Assembly: GCA_951406725.2 (NCBI GenBank)
Contig: OX597837.1
Location: forward strand, 35,154,001 to 35,218,000
Length of the DNA: 64,000 bases
Direction: 5' to 3'
Origin: Octopus vulgaris
Lineage: Eukaryota
The stretch's first letter is position 1; every line of letters begins with the position of its first letter. Of this stretch, positions 24,001-48,000 are shown piece after piece. The position numbers were made by a program.

Positions 24001-27000
24001 TGGACGGTTTGACAGGAGTCAGCCAGGTAGACATTAAATTATATACAGACAGACATATATTGTCCAATCCAAACAAGCATGGAAAATGGATGTTAAGTGA
24101 TGATGATGATTGATACATACACTTGCACATACATATACACATGCATACATATATATCTGAAGATTTCTCTTGAATGAAACAGTACTAGTCCTGTAGAAGC
24201 TCCTTCTATATAATAAATTAATTTTACTCTGCTATGTATTGAGTACCTTACTTACTGTGGTTAACCCCGAATCAACCCGGGACCTACAATATATATATAT
24301 ATATATATATATATATATATATATATATACACACACACACATGTGCATACATAAATATATATATGTACACACATGCATACATAAATAATATATATATATA
24401 TATATATACACATGCATACATAAATATATATATATACACACATGCATACATAAATATATATATATACACACATGCATACATATATATATACACACACACA
24501 CACACATGCACACACATATATACACACACACACACATGCACACATACATATATATATACACACACATGCATACATACATATATATATATATATATATACA
24601 TACACACACACATGCATACATAATTATAACAAAGGATTGGCTATAAGCCACTCCACATGCTAGAAAAATAAACACCACACCAAAAGACACTATTATCACC
24701 TTAAAAACTCCAAAAAATAAAACACAGGCTGTAGTCAGGCAAAAGAAAGACAATGAATCAAACTTCTGGTTAAACTTGTACAAGATCCCATTTCAAGCTT
24801 AAGGTTAAAAAATTATACCTACAGCTCTCTTCAGCAACGATATTCCATAGTATATATTTACAAGTATCTACACATAATAATTTATATAATAATTATTTGA
24901 GGGAATATTATTCCTAACTTACAGGGAAAAATTCAATTTAGAAATACTAAATCAAATTTCACAAACTATAATATATATATAAATTAGAAAAAAACACCTT
25001 TTATCAATTCAAAATGAACAATTAAATTACACCATACATATATTAGAAATATTAAAATTAAAATAACAATAATATAACGATGATTAAGTAAATTGCAAAA
25101 TAATAATAATAATAATGTTATTCTACCAAATATATACATTTTATTATTATTTTGCAATTTACTTAATCATTGGTATATTATTGTTATTCTAATTTTAATA
25201 TTTCTATTATATGTAATTTTCTAGATGGTGTAATTTAATTGTTCATTTTGAATTGATAATAGGTGGTTTTTCTAATTTATATATATATATATATATATAT
25301 ATATATATATGCATATATACATGCATGCATACATACATACACAAATGCACACACATGCATACATAAGGTAGCTTTTGATGTTTTAAGTCATGCCTTGCTT
25401 ACAGGACATCAGAAAGTTTCAAACAAAATGTAAAATTAAAATAAAATAAACCTCAAAAACAAAATTAAATTTTAAAAAAAACACTAAATTCTCACTTTCA
25501 CACCCTCCCCCCTCATTATGTCAGAAACAAAAAAATGAGGGCAGAGCTTTAACTGGTTGTTAAACCTGCTAGAAATAGCAACCAAATCTCCCTCAAATCA
25601 CACATCCTACTGTCTGCATAAAGGACAAACATATTGAATGATATTCTTATTGATACACTATGTCTGCAAAAAAATTTGAAAAACATAAAACAGATGGAAT
25701 GGTCATGGAAGGACTTTCTTTGATCATAGGTCTGTTCATTTTGCATGCTGGTTTGGATATAAACCAATAACAATACAATGAATTTGATCCCTCTTTGATA
25801 CTGACTTTGAGAGCCCTAATTTCACCAAAACCTAACCCTTAATTCTTACCTTTTTCAGCCCCATTCTGTAGAATATGCGTACAGTTGCAACAAAGTCTTC
25901 CAGCAGATGGGGAAAAGCTTTCAGTTGTAGAGTCCTGGCTTAGCTTTCTGCTACAGTTTAAAGAGGAGAGGAAGGTCGGGAGGGGGAGAGAAGGGCAGAA
26001 AGAGGGGGTGAGGAAGAGACAAGGGAAGAAAAGGGAGATAGGTAGAGAGGAGGAGGAAGATAGAAGGACGACAGAGGGAAAAAGGGAAGGAGAGATGGGG
26101 AAAGGAGAGGGAGAAAGGGAGAGAGAGAAGGAAGATAGAGAGAGACAGAGGGAAAGAGGGGAGATACTAGAAACACAGGTGGGGTGGAATAAAGAGGGAG
26201 AGTAGACAAACAGTAAAAGACAGAGAGAGAAGGAGAGGGAGGGAGGAAAAGACAAAGAGAAAGAGAGACAGATGGGTAGGGAAAGAGAGAGAGAAACAGA
26301 CAGAGAGAGAGGGGGGAAAGAGAGAAGGAGGGAGGAAGAGATAAAGAGAAAGACAGACAGATAGGGAGAGACAGACAGATAGAGAGAGAGAGGGGGAAAG
26401 ATAGAGAGGGAAAGGGAAAGAGGGAAAGGGAGAGAGAGAGAGAGAGGAGCAGACACATCTACTATTACACTATAAGAATAACAATAACATTAACAACAAG
26501 ATGACCAATGTCCAGAACACACTTTGGTCATAGGTCAGACATGAGGGCTAAAATTATATCCAGTTACAAAAACAACAACAACACCAACAACAACAGCTAG
26601 AAGAGTTTTTAGATCATTGGCTGTTAATAGGTTGGGTGGTAGGAGAAAGGTGGTGGTGGTGGTGGTGGGAGGAGAATGCCATAGTGTGTGTGGGATTTTG
26701 ATGTGTGTGTGTGTGTGTGTGCACATGTCCTATTGGACACTGACCAACACAATGTGTAAGAAATTATACGCTGAAGGTAGGGAGCTGGTCGTGGCGGGGT
26801 GGATAATACTGGGAATGATGTAATGTGTGTATGTGTGTGTGTGTGTGTGTGTGTGTGTGTGTAATTGGACAGTGACCAGTGGGGTGGTGCTTAAGTAATT
26901 ATACAGTATGTGTGCATGCACACACACACACACAAAACACATACATATATAATGAGAGAGAGAAGTTTGTTAGAATAAACAGCAGAAAGAGAACTCAATA

Positions 27001-45000: not shown

Positions 45001-48000
45001 TTGTCTGTTTGCTAATTTTTTTCTTCTTTGTTTTGTTTTGTTTATATAATAAGTAAACAAATAAATAAAAACACACGCACTGGTAACCGAGGGCAACTGT
45101 TGCCAAGCAACACAAACACACAACAACCAGCAGCAACAGAAAACACCAGTGGACGACTCCAGCCAACACGGGGGAGAGAGAGAGCCTCTATGTGATCACT
45201 TGAGCTGCTAAAAATAATAGCCAAATCCCAACCTCAACCTCCCCCCCCCCTCTCTCTCTCGAGCTAACCATTTTTATTTTTTGCTTGTTTCAGTTATTGG
45301 ACTGCGACCAAGCTGGGGCACGGCACTGAAGGGTTTTAATCGAAGAAGTCGAGTCCAAGACATTCCCTCTCTCTCTCATTTATTTTATTTGTTTTTTTTT
45401 TATTTGATAGTCTAATACTTATTCTTTTAATCGTTTCTGCCGAACGACTAAGTTATGAGGACGTAAACAAACCAACACCAGTTATCAAGGGGGAAGTGGT
45501 GGGGGACAAAAACACACACATATGAGAGAGAGAGAGAGAAGAATACGACAGGCTTCCACAGTTTCTGCCTTCTAAATTCCCTTACAAGACATTGTTCGGC
45601 CAGGAGTTATAGCAGAAACACTTGCCCAAGGTACCACACAGCGGGACTGAACCCGATACCAGGCAGTTGCAAAACGAGCTCCTTAACCACACAACCAAGC
45701 CTACAAATGAAAGAATATATAATGGCTAATGTAGGCCTTTTTGGCAGGATGGTCCTGGCTGGAACGTCTTGGACAACTTGGTTTAGAAGCAAATCATATC
45801 GCATGGCACAATATATCCAACCACGCCATTCACTTCTATACAATGTCCCGCAAGCCAACGACGATCCTGTTTTGCTTGAAATAGCAGCCAAATCTTAAAT
45901 TGCTCTCAACCATTTTGAAAAGGAATGAATCGGATTATCTGATCTGATTGTGGGTGCATTATTTTTGGATCTTTTCGGTTTGAACGGCAGTTTTTTCTAG
46001 CGGTGTCATATGAAAGTGTCACCCATAATTATGACCCTAGTATTGATCTATTGCATTTCAATCTGTTTTAGGGTTAGGGTTAGGGGTGGGGGGAAGGGTA
46101 TCTTTTGATTCAATCAATGGAACAGCCTGTTCGTGAAATTAACGTGCAAGTGGCTGAGTACTCCACAGTCACGTGTACCCTTAACGTAGTTCTTGGGGAG
46201 ATTCAGCGTGACACAGAGTGTGACAAGGCTGGCCCTTTGAAATACACGTACAAGAGAAACAGGAAAAAAGAGTGAGAGAAAGTTGTGGTGAAGGAGTACA
46301 GCAGGGTTTGCCACTGCCCCCTGCCGGAGCCTTGTGGAGCTTTAGGTGTTGCACTCAACAATCACTCACAACAATTGGTTTGGGAATTGAAACCGCAATC
46401 CTACGACTGCGAGTCCGCTGCCCTAACCACTGGGCCATTGCGTCTCCACAATCACTTATAATTAAGCATTATTAGCAATTATTCTTTTACTTGTTTCAAT
46501 CATTTGACTGAGGCCATGCTGGAGCACCATCTTTAGTTGAACAAATCAATCCCAGGACTTATTCTTTGTTAGCCTAGTACTTATTCTATCAGTCTCTTTT
46601 GCCAGGTGATGATAGGGAGACAATGTTTCTTTATTACCCACAAGGGGCTAAACACTGAGGGGACAAACAAGGACAGACAAACGAATTAAGTCGATTACAT
46701 TAACCCCAATGCGTAACTGGTACTTAATTTATCGACCCTGAAAGGATGAAAGGCAAAGTCGACCTAGCGGCAATGATGGTGAAAAATATGATGATGATGA
46801 TGATGAAAATATCACATCACACAACATCAAACACTACATCATACAATCCACCACCACCACCACCACCACTACCCTACCACACATCACTACACCCTACACA
46901 CTATTACCCTGTATATTCATCCTTGGTCCTCAGCTTACAATGGAGACAGGTTACAACCTTGATTCTGGATCAATAAGGTGACCCCCCCTTCATCATTCAG
47001 CTGACCACCTTCTGCTCTAGGACAGTCTGATCAAGGGCAGACTCCAGGCTATGCAACAACAACAACAACAACACCAAAATCTCACAAGGCAAGGCTATAA
47101 CTCAACTTCCTGGTTGCCAAATCTCTCTAAATCCTGCCTTATTTTGAACATCATCAAAATAAAATGTCCACTTTAGCAATCACTTAATCCTTAACCCTCA
47201 GCATTTAAACCAGCCAAATCCAGCCCAAGTATTCTTGTCTACTCTAGGTACAAGGCACAAAATTTTGGGGGACGGGGGCCAGTCGAGATTAGATCAAGCT
47301 CAGTACTTAATTTATCGACCCCAAAAAGATGAAAAGCAAAGTTGACCTCGGCGGAATTTGAACTCAGAACGTAACAGCAGATAAAATACCGCTAAGCATT
47401 TTGCCCGGTGTGCTAACATTTCGTATTTCTTTATTGCCTACAAGGGGCTAAACATAGAGGGGACAGGAACATAAACAAACCAACACCAGTTGTCAAGTGG
47501 TGATGGCGGTGGACATGGACACACACACACACACATCTTTTACTTGTTTCAATCATTAAACTGTGACCATGTTGGGGCACCACCTAGAATAATGTTTAGT
47601 CAAATGAAGTGACCCCAATATTTATCCTTTTTTTCAAGCCTGATACTTATTCTATTGCTCTCTTTTGCTGAACCACTAGGTTACAGGGATGTAAACACAC
47701 CAACAAAGGGATTAAGTCGATTACATCGACCCCAGTGTGTAACTGGTACTTAATTTATCGGCCCCGAAAAGATGAAAGGCAAAGTCGACCTCAGCGGAAT
47801 TTGAACTTAGAACATAAAGACAGACGAAATACTGCTAAGCATTTTGCCCAGTGTGCTAACCACTCTGCCAGTTCGCCACCTTCCGGCCCAAGTATTCTAC
47901 CTGTCTTACATTCAGACCAGCCAGATCTGGCCTTTCACATCTTCCCTACAATGTTGTTCTAAAAATAAACGATCACATCATTGATTTCTTTTACTTGTTT

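What the first reader, a model, noticed from the sequence alone, without database searches (positions are those of the whole stretch)
25850..45111. Possible RFX-driven internal promoter producing a single-DCX-domain short isoform of the DCDC2-like gene
Seen: inside the ~51-kb intron, in minus-strand order, are two X-boxes, an ATG-free leader, and a well-formed 101-nt exon whose only ATG is in frame with the next coding exon. The predicted protein starts MGLKK|IKPVTHSQFRVSGK and has DCX2 but not DCX1. Known: DCDC2 is a ciliary microtubule-binding protein regulated by RFX through X-boxes, and tandem DCX domains cooperate in microtubule binding. Inferred: these three pieces form one alternative transcript, giving ciliated cells a one-domain isoform.
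Basis: partly seen in the sequence, partly recalled or inferred. Interest (0 to 1): 0.72.

Follow-up and report, generated by a model that had tools for sequence, protein, structure and literature searches.

The report
Short one-domain octopus DCDC2 isoform
An extra exon inside a long intron of an octopus cilia-related microtubule-binding gene gives a shorter protein with only the second of its two binding domains; that protein is already in public gene models, and the proposed cilia-specific switch driving it remains plausible but unproven.

Summary

- **Exon:** the 101-nt exon at 25,950-25,850 has top-percentile splice sites. Its only ATG gives MGLKK in phase with the next exon at 6,884.
- **Independent support:** a deposited Octopus vulgaris model (P0004, 593 aa) begins with exactly those five residues, followed directly by the exon-6,884 residues. 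So does an ORF on a 1,079-nt contig from a more distant cephalopod (P0007). Both carry one DCX domain; the long form (P0003) carries two. The short isoform is therefore real, conserved and already in public data.
- **X-boxes:** 45,083-45,111 holds the only two matches in 64 kb to GTNRCC(0-3N)RGYAAC. Two sites this close arose in 2 of 1,500 simulated windows.
- **Setting:** the X-boxes sit in a unique 1-kb island with a TATA-like box and an 895-nt ATG-free run.
- **Untested link:** nothing connects this island, 19 kb upstream, to the exon. Candidate donors in it are only moderate.
- **Rivals still open:** the exon may be a cassette exon spliced from the canonical transcript, where it brings a stop after 9 codons. 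Or the start site may lie nearer the exon.

Verdict: partly supported, moderate interest.

The parts
57856..57919 (-). Constitutive exon A of the DCDC2-family gene: the linker after DCX1. It ends in phase 0 with donor GAT|GTGAGT. The 51-kb intron starts at 57,855.
   Evidence: Its translation matches residues 98-118 of P0003. Donor score 8.6 bits.
45099..45111 (.). X-box 1, a 13-mer with a 1-nt spacer. It matches GTNRCC(0-3N)RGYAAC in full.
   Evidence: Consensus taken from PMC5752003 and PMC10530576.
45083..45097 (.). X-box 2, a 15-mer with a 3-nt spacer. It matches the consensus in full when read on the + strand. Together with X-box 1 it gives 4 RFX half-sites within 30 nt.
   Evidence: This is the only 30-nt span in the window with 4 of the 94 half-sites.
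45053..45059 (+). Forkhead-core heptamer GTAAACA between the X-boxes and the TATA-like box. Weak evidence.
   Evidence: 13 + strand and 8 minus-strand copies in the window. That this is a forkhead core is recalled, not checked.
45041..45048 (-). TATA-like octamer (TATAWAAR) 35 nt downstream of the X-boxes. It implies a start site near 45,017.
   Evidence: It is the only minus-strand match in 44,250-45,300, and one of 28 on the minus strand of the window. The start-site position is inferred.
44376..45270 (-).
   Evidence: and (0 of 1,000 shuffles were ATG-free).
44265..45270 (.). Island with no repeated copy elsewhere in the window, flanked on both sides by copies of a SINE-like element. CpG observed/expected is 0.68 against 0.40 for the window, and 1.17 over 44,871-45,098.
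   Evidence: (self-BLAST).
44663..44681 (-). Candidate leader donors. The last exon base would be 44,681, 44,667 or 44,663. A fourth candidate is at 44,276.
   Evidence: 5.9, 6.6, 6.6 and 8.0 bits on the recalled matrix. Known donors in the window score 5.2-10.8 bits.
25951..26457 (-). CT-rich low-complexity tract that supplies the polypyrimidine tract and the AG-free zone of the acceptor.
25850..25950 (-). Alternative 101-nt 5' coding exon. The ATG at 25,864-25,862 sits in the context AGAATGG and gives MGLKK. The ATG frame has a TAA upstream. Read in phase from exon A, the exon stops after 9 codons.
   Evidence: P0004 and P0007 begin with these five residues.
6808..6884 (-). Exon B: the inter-domain linker and the first strand of DCX2. 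It is the first exon shared by the long and short forms.
4015..4149 (-). Exon C: the first half of DCX2.
   Evidence: 100% identical to P0003 and P0004.
2234..2368 (-). Exon D: the second half of DCX2.
   Evidence: (Pfam DCX, E = 7.1e-05).

Best explanation
Shown. The 101-nt exon at 25,950-25,850 is a genuine alternative 5' coding exon of the octopus DCDC2-family gene. Joined to the exon at 6,884, it places an AUG in a good context (A at -3, G at +4) in front of five new residues, the inter-domain linker, a complete second DCX domain and the long tail. The product lacks DCX1.

Inferred. The exon has a strong acceptor, so it is probably not the first exon. My preferred reading is that a non-coding leader, transcribed from a promoter inside the 51-kb intron, splices onto it. 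The best candidate in this window is the unique island at 45.27-44.27 kb. In that reading, tandem X-boxes at about -95 to -66, a TATA-like box and a start site near 45,017 give an AUG-free leader ending at a donor near 44,68x-44,66x. The MGLKK AUG would then be the first in the mRNA. RFX factors would switch the short form on in ciliated cells.

My odds for each step:
- exon and isoform are real: 0.9
- some start site lies downstream of the DCX1 exons: about 0.6
- that start site is the X-box island: about 0.35

A protein with only the C-terminal DC repeat would be expected to keep tubulin contact but lose the tandem-dependent stabilising activity. This is inferred from work on DCX itself, not DCDC2.
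For: Isoform.
- P0004 (O. vulgaris, 593 aa) and P0007 (unnamed source, 326 aa on a 1,079-nt contig) both start with MGLKK followed directly by the exon-B residues.
- The window is 100% identical to the O. vulgaris proteins over exons B-D.
- A 978-nt ORF on a 1,079-nt contig cannot be genomic for a gene with introns of 2-51 kb, so the junction exists in RNA (inference).
- P0007's species is only 58% identical overall to P0004 but keeps 5 of 5 N-terminal residues.
- P0004 and P0007 each have one DCX hit over residues 46-106; P0003 has two. P0007 residues 30-114 align to the solved DCDC2 DCX domain 2dnf_A.
- The O. vulgaris annotation added alternative forms from Iso-Seq and RNA-seq through PASA (PMC10700109, passages). 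That P0004 comes from this annotation is my inference.

Promoter candidate.
- The window's only two consensus X-boxes are adjacent; 2 of 1,500 simulations matched that.
- The island is unique sequence.
- It holds the only minus-strand TATAWAAR in the island.
- It holds an 895-nt ATG-free run, and CpG o/e is raised.
- No X-box lies within 1 kb of the exon itself.
- No nested protein gene or Rfam RNA is there to claim the island.
- RFX controls human DCDC2 through X-boxes (PMC5024701).
Against: - No transcript, CAGE or orthologous-intron data were reachable, so the leader-to-exon junction is unobserved.
- Leader donors score 5.9-6.6 bits, against 8.6-10.8 bits for three of the five known donors. 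The matrix is recalled.
- An AATAAA lies at 44,898 inside the proposed leader.
- The X-box spacers are 1 and 3 nt. The recalled 14-mer with an AT spacer has 0 hits.
- The ATG-free run also shows on the + strand and includes about 180 nt of tandem repeat.
- CpG o/e of 0.68 over the island is below the window's 90th percentile of 0.74.
- Among proteins of 326-1,038 aa, no O. bimaculoides model starts with MGLKK (2 of 6 hits have that start).
- Longest-ORF callers would report the same protein from a cassette-exon transcript.
Confidence: 0.4

Rival explanations
1. Cassette (poison) exon. The 101-nt exon is spliced in between exon A (57,856) and exon B (6,884) of transcripts from the canonical promoter. 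It shifts the frame and stops translation after 9 codons. ORF callers then report the longest downstream ORF, which starts at MGLKK. The X-box pair would be an intronic enhancer of the canonical promoter, or unrelated.
For: Read in phase from exon A, the exon gives nine codons and then TGA. The exon has a first-class acceptor, as an internal exon would. The O. vulgaris pipeline ran TransDecoder on PASA assemblies, and I expect such ORF calling to report the 593-aa ORF over one of about 128 aa. Neither P0004 nor P0007 says anything about the 5' UTR.
Against: An AUG behind an upstream ORF of about 128 codons would rarely be translated. Yet the five residues are identical in a species whose protein is only 58% identical overall, and the AUG context is good. 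A search for short proteins carrying the DCX1 part found none: 2 candidates, 0 hits. That is weak evidence. The contig behind P0007 leaves at most 98 nt for both UTRs, so it shows no upstream coding exon, though it may simply be cut short.
Confidence: 0.25
2. An internal start site, but not at the X-box island. Transcription would start elsewhere in the intron or directly at the exon, for instance in or just after the CT-rich tract, making the 'acceptor' a by-product of that microsatellite. The X-box pair 19 kb away would be a distal RFX enhancer, the promoter of an unrelated non-coding transcript, or a chance or repeat-derived site.
For: The acceptor's quality is explained by the 500-nt CT-rich tract. 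P0007's contig leaves at most 98 nt of UTR in total, and the exon alone has 86 nt before the ATG. Leader donors are only moderate. Genome-wide, about one window in 750 would carry such an X-box pair by chance (2 of 1,500).
Against: No X-box, no TATAWAAR scan result and no CpG rise argue for a promoter near the exon. CpG o/e is 0.08-0.15 over 25.5-26.5 kb. Distal functional X-boxes are described as the exception (PMC5838959, section 9). The chance of the pair falling in this particular window, inside an orthologue of a known RFX target, is about 0.001.
Confidence: 0.25
3. Annotation artefact. The MGLKK start is a mis-assembly or mis-call and no such protein is made.
For: Both supports are predicted proteins, not peptides. 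P0007 has an odd C-terminal end compared with P0006. NCBI's O. bimaculoides models in the hit list lack this start.
Against: Two independent sources and two species give the same junction and the same five residues. The splice sites are in the top 0.2%. Only 2 loci in 51 kb pass the exon filter.
Confidence: 0.05

Closest known systems
Human DCDC2 promoter X-box bound and regulated by RFX1/2/3 (PMC5024701; abstract start and passages seen)
   Same: The same gene family and the same motif class. The octopus sites meet the published consensus GTNRCC(0-3N)RGYAAC.
   Different: The human motifs were sought in the 3 kb upstream of exon 1 and tested with luciferase reporters and EMSA. Here the sites are a tandem pair deep in a 51-kb intron, 19 kb upstream of an alternative exon. 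No binding, conservation or start-site data exist. The canonical octopus promoter lies outside the window.
DCLK1 short isoforms from an internal (beta) promoter (PMC4597220, PMC10671580; search listing and abstract starts only; that they lack the DCX repeats is recalled)
   Same: A doublecortin-family gene that uses a second promoter.
   Different: As I recall, DCLK1-S loses both DCX repeats and keeps a kinase. The octopus form would lose only the first repeat and has no kinase. The octopus internal promoter is not demonstrated.
Division of labour between the NDC and CDC repeats of doublecortin (PMC7726794; abstract and section headings seen)
   Same: The octopus short form is a natural protein with only the second repeat. 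The abstract assigns nucleation and nascent-lattice contacts to CDC and mature-lattice stabilisation to NDC. A section heading says the DC tandem is required for stabilisation.
   Different: That work used engineered human DCX, not DCDC2. Whether DCDC2's second repeat behaves like the CDC of DCX was not tested here.
Deposited model 'domain-containing 2-like isoform X2 [Octopus vulgaris]' (P0004) and the unnamed ORF P0007
   Same: The same N-terminus and the same downstream exons. The window is identical to P0004 over exons B-D.
   Different: These are protein records only.

Membership tests
Doublecortin (DCX, PF03607) domain proteins, DCDC2 subfamily | Match to the DCX profile above Pfam's gathering score | tested here: met
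   Scores against a cut-off of 22 bits: exon D ORF 23.3; P0004 27.3 (one stretch, residues 46-106); P0007 28.8; P0003 85.3 (two stretches).
Doublecortin (DCX, PF03607) domain proteins, DCDC2 subfamily | Closest solved or named relatives are DCDC2 | tested here: met
   The only PDB hit is 2dnf_A, 'Doublecortin domain-containing protein 2', E = 3.6e-08, aligned to P0007 residues 30-114. The named hits are octopus DCDC2 models.
Alternative first-exon / internal-promoter isoform | An RNA-level junction between the alternative exon and the shared exon | tested here: met
   Indirect. Two predicted proteins from two species carry the junction, one of them on a transcript-sized contig. No reads were seen.
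Alternative first-exon / internal-promoter isoform | A separate transcription start site downstream of the canonical one | not testable with these tools
   No transcript, CAGE or annotation coordinates were reachable. The cassette-exon reading stays open.
RFX-regulated (X-box) promoter | Sequence match to GTNRCC(0-3N)RGYAAC | tested here: met
   Two adjacent matches, the only ones in 64 kb. Consensus.
RFX-regulated (X-box) promoter | Motif close to a start site (robust window -500 to +500 in human; PMC5838959) | not testable with these tools
   No start-site data. The motifs lie 19.1 kb from the exon, so this criterion is met only if a leader exon starts near 45.0 kb.
RFX-regulated (X-box) promoter | Conservation of the motif in orthologous sequence | not testable with these tools
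   No cephalopod genome collection was on hand. Genome contigs holds only bacteria and archaea and was not used.
RFX-regulated (X-box) promoter | RFX binding, and expression that depends on the motif | not testable with these tools
   Needs EMSA or ChIP and reporter assays.

The most novel reading that the evidence does not exclude
Cephalopods keep a dedicated, RFX-switched internal promoter in the DCDC2 gene. In ciliated cells it makes a protein with only the C-terminal DC repeat. This would be a natural separation of the nucleating and tubulin-contacting repeat from the lattice-stabilising repeat, conserved across distant cephalopods.
Probability: 0.3. Interest if true: 0.6.

Novelty: new member of a known kind. 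Interest (0 to 1): 0.38.

Why it matters
If the link holds, one gene would supply two microtubule binders: a tandem-repeat form and a single-repeat form. The single-repeat form would be placed under the ciliogenic RFX programme by its own promoter. That would give a natural test of what a lone second DC repeat does in cilia. It would also extend RFX control of DCDC2, shown in human cells, to a mollusc.

As it stands, the firm result is more modest. The short form is real, is conserved between two cephalopods and is already deposited. My searches found no paper describing it.

Tried and rejected
- **DCX1 in the window.** Pfam found no DCX1 in 105 minus-strand ORFs of at least 20 aa above 57.5 kb, and tblastn with P0003 found none. 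The DCX1 exons and the canonical promoter lie outside the window.
- **Nested gene as owner of the island.** I scanned 238 of the 291 ORFs of at least 60 aa that passed an entropy filter of 3.4 bits, namely those between 7.4 and 58.1 kb. Low-complexity ORFs were dropped beforehand, and I did not record how many. The hits were a reverse-transcriptase fragment, mariner-type transposase remnants, and four hits below Pfam's cut-offs on three ORFs: two zinc-finger-type (10,741-10,965), DUF7711 and YxzE.
- **Known RNA families.** No family reached its gathering score across the window. One far-sub-threshold SCARNA7 match (23.5 against 65 bits) at 44,264-44,383 was judged spurious.
- **LINE 5' UTR as the origin of the island.** Rejected. 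The reverse-transcriptase fragment starts at 42,930 and the gap up to the island is filled by SINE-like copies.
- **Structure of the short form.** AlphaFold on P0007 with a 7-row alignment gave mean pLDDT 35.2 and pTM 0.13, which is unusable. No fold search was run on it.
- **Wider homologue search.** It gave 213 relatives at E up to 0.001. Most align the exon-B start to about position 110-130 of two-domain proteins. About two dozen of the 150 listed align from within their first 36 or so residues. They are unnamed and could come from any animal, so I did not fetch them and cannot tell fragments from short isoforms.
- **Other X-box definitions, recalled rather than checked.** The 14-mer with an AT spacer gave 0 sites. 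A relaxed form gave 12 sites against 15.5 expected. A Drosophila-style form gave 14 sites against 6.7 expected, and several of those carry the same GCTTGACAAC-type core as the repeated SINE-like 13-mer.

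
Full report
**What the window is.** The minus strand carries part of an octopus DCDC2-family gene. I searched exon by exon, starting with the single exon at 2,367-2,236. That search returned named octopus proteins. The four coding exons I could place are:

- A: 57,919-57,856
- B: 6,884-6,808
- C: 4,149-4,015
- D: 2,368-2,234

Exons C and D align to the O. vulgaris protein P0003 (706 aa) at 100% identity. The exon A and B residues are also identical; those two alignments run on into intron sequence. 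Exons A and B are separated by a 50,971-nt intron.

The first DCX domain (P0003 residues 1-97) is not in the window. Pfam found none in 105 minus-strand ORFs above 57.5 kb, and tblastn found none. The canonical promoter is therefore out of reach. I did not send any joined exon model of my own to a search. Later queries were database proteins as returned.

- Its only ATG, at 25,864-25,862, has A at -3 and G at +4. It gives MGLKK and ends in phase 0, matching the phase-0 start of exon B.
- The donor AAG|GTAAGA is at the 99.8th percentile of 3,933 minus-strand GT sites on a recalled donor matrix.
- The acceptor follows a CT-rich tract of about 500 nt and has a 216-nt AG-free zone, the 99.8th percentile of 3,129 AG sites.
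- A combined filter asked for a decent acceptor, a donor of at least 6 bits, a length of 50-300 nt, and a first ATG in phase and open to the donor. It passes 2 loci in the 51-kb intron. This exon is the stronger; the other is at 10,314-10,151.
- The ATG frame has a TAA upstream within the exon. Whatever lies upstream, the protein must start at this ATG.

**Independent evidence for the product.**

- P0004 is a 593-aa protein held by NCBI and UniRef under an O. vulgaris name. It begins with MGLKK followed directly by the residues of exon B.
- P0007 is a 326-aa ORF from an unnamed source on a 1,079-nt contig, and has the same start.
- P0007's species is distant. Overall identity to P0004 is 58% and the tails differ greatly, yet the five N-terminal residues are identical.
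- An ORF of this length on a contig this short cannot be genomic for a gene with introns this size. The junction therefore exists in RNA (inference).
- P0004 and P0007 each have one full-length Pfam DCX match over residues 46-106. P0003 has two.
- P0007 residues 30-114 align to the solved DCX domain of DCDC2, 2dnf_A.
- The published O. vulgaris annotation added alternative forms from Iso-Seq and RNA-seq with PASA, called ORFs with TransDecoder and named proteins with Blast2GO (PMC10700109, passages).
- A search with P0004 residues 1-40 among proteins of 326-1,038 aa returned 6 proteins. Two of them (P0004 and P0007) have the MGLKK start. The O. bimaculoides models do not.

The short isoform is thus real, conserved and already deposited. 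My literature searches found no description of it:

- 3 papers hold both 'DCDC2' and 'octopus'. Two were listed, and neither concerns cephalopod DCDC2.
- 48 papers matched and 12 were listed. By title or abstract start, none describes a one-domain DCDC2 form.

**The X-boxes.** The consensus GTNRCC(0-3N)RGYAAC is quoted in PMC5752003 and PMC10530576 (passages).

- On both strands of the 64-kb window it matches twice, at 45,083-45,097 and 45,099-45,111, one base apart.
- First-order Markov simulations give 0.655 sites per window, and 14.4% of them have two or more sites. Only 2 of 1,500 have two sites within 50 nt.
- The 30-nt span holds 4 of the window's 94 RFX half-sites. No other span holds 4.
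- Relaxed matches to the 13-mer elsewhere are mostly one repeated, SINE-borne sequence: 5 of the 12 matches at up to 2 mismatches are that identical 13-mer.

I take the pair to be a non-random, probably functional RFX site. Whether it acts as a promoter or an enhancer is a separate question.

**The island around the X-boxes.**

- Self-BLAST shows that 44,265-45,270 has no other copy in the window and is bounded by copies of a SINE-like element.
- On the minus strand, a TATAWAAR match lies 35 nt downstream of the X-boxes, at 45,048-45,041. It is the only one in the island and one of 28 on that strand of the window.
- A GTAAACA heptamer lies between the X-boxes and the TATA-like box.
- The ATG-free run 45,270-44,376 is the longest on the minus strand not explained by tandem repeats. 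It is beyond all 1,000 dinucleotide shuffles.
- CpG o/e is 0.68 over the island and 1.17 just downstream of the X-boxes, against 0.40 for the window.

These features fit a start site near 45,017 and an AUG-free leader.

Against that reading:

- Candidate donors score only 5.9-6.6 bits (44,681, 44,667, 44,663) and 8.0 bits (44,276).
- An AATAAA sits at 44,898.
- The + strand is also ATG-free over 600 nt.
- The CpG rise is modest.
- No nested coding gene or Rfam family is there to claim the island.

**What remains open.** Nothing I could reach links the island to the exon 19.1 kb downstream. In human, functional X-boxes lie mostly within -500 to +500 of the start site, and distal ones are described as the exception (PMC5838959, section 9 read in full). 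Two rivals fit the same data.

- **Cassette exon.** Spliced after exon A, the 101-nt exon is read as nine codons and then TGA. A longest-ORF caller would still report the MGLKK protein. Against this: the five residues are conserved, the AUG context is good, and the AUG would sit behind a long upstream ORF. A search for short DCX1-only proteins found none (2 candidates, 0 hits), which is weak evidence.
- **A nearer start site.** Transcription may start closer to the exon or at the exon itself. The contig behind P0007 leaves at most 98 nt for both UTRs, and the exon alone has 86 nt before the ATG. Against this: CpG o/e around the exon is 0.08-0.15, and no X-box lies within 1 kb of it.

**How it would work.** RFX regulation of human DCDC2 through promoter X-boxes is established by reporter and gel-shift assays (PMC5024701, passages). 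For doublecortin itself, the C-terminal repeat is assigned nucleation and nascent-lattice contacts. The N-terminal repeat is assigned mature-lattice stabilisation, and a section heading states that the tandem is required for stabilisation (PMC7726794, abstract and headings). By inference, the octopus short form would keep tubulin contact and the long tail but lose tandem-dependent stabilisation. It could then act as a distinct or modulating microtubule binder. None of this was tested here, and the structure prediction failed (pLDDT 35).

**Verdict.** The product is right, and it is already in public models. The X-box pair is statistically real. The claim that the three pieces form one RFX-driven transcript is a reasonable hypothesis, at roughly one chance in three. 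This is a new member of known kinds: an alternative 5' exon isoform of a DCX-family gene, and an X-box next to a ciliary gene. It is not a new kind of system.

**Not checked.** No cephalopod genome or read collection was available. The PDF supplements of PMC5024701 could not be read.

Noticed in passing
window 43,900-44,264 and 45,271-45,324; further copies at e.g. 2,422-2,800, 16,732-17,096, 29,235-29,611, 34,280-34,644, 58,060-58,439: A SINE-like element of about 360 nt occurs in at least 15 copies or fragments at 67-93% identity. It carries a 13-mer that resembles an X-box, which accounts for most relaxed X-box matches in the window.
   Followed up: partly
window 50,866-54,080: An 83-nt tandem repeat in 37 copies at 93% match, with extreme GC and AT skew. 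It gives a 3.5-kb ATG-free run on the minus strand.
   Followed up: no
window 8,234-8,991: A 100-nt tandem repeat in 7.6 copies at 94% match.
   Followed up: no
window 42,115-42,930 (-) and 49,133-49,404 (-): Transposable-element remnants inside the big intron: a reverse-transcriptase C-terminal fragment (RVT_1, E = 7.8e-07, just under the cut-off) and mariner-type transposase pieces (Transposase_1, E = 1.2e-07).
   Followed up: partly
window 10,741-10,965 (+): An ORF with two zinc-finger-like matches, both below Pfam's cut-offs. It may be a decayed zinc-finger or transposable-element fragment.
   Followed up: no
window 10,314-10,151 (-): The only other locus in the 51-kb intron that passes the exon filter. 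Its donor is weaker (6.6 bits) and no database protein supports it.
   Followed up: no
window 44,721-44,832 and 57,261-57,654: Purine-rich tandem repeats (37 nt in 3 copies; 119-128 nt in about 3 copies) about 70% alike. One lies in the candidate leader, the other just downstream of exon A.
   Followed up: no
proteins P0002, P0005, P0007 versus P0001, P0003, P0004, P0006 (gene region beyond window start): A 37-residue segment right after the DCX2 exon D is present in some models and absent in others, in both species groups. This looks like a conserved cassette exon downstream of the window, independent of the N-terminal choice.
   Followed up: no
one search hit table (no window coordinates): About two dozen of the 150 listed distant DCX relatives align from within their first 36 or so residues, so they may lack a first DCX domain. 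They are unnamed and were not fetched, so fragments and true short forms cannot be told apart.
   Followed up: no
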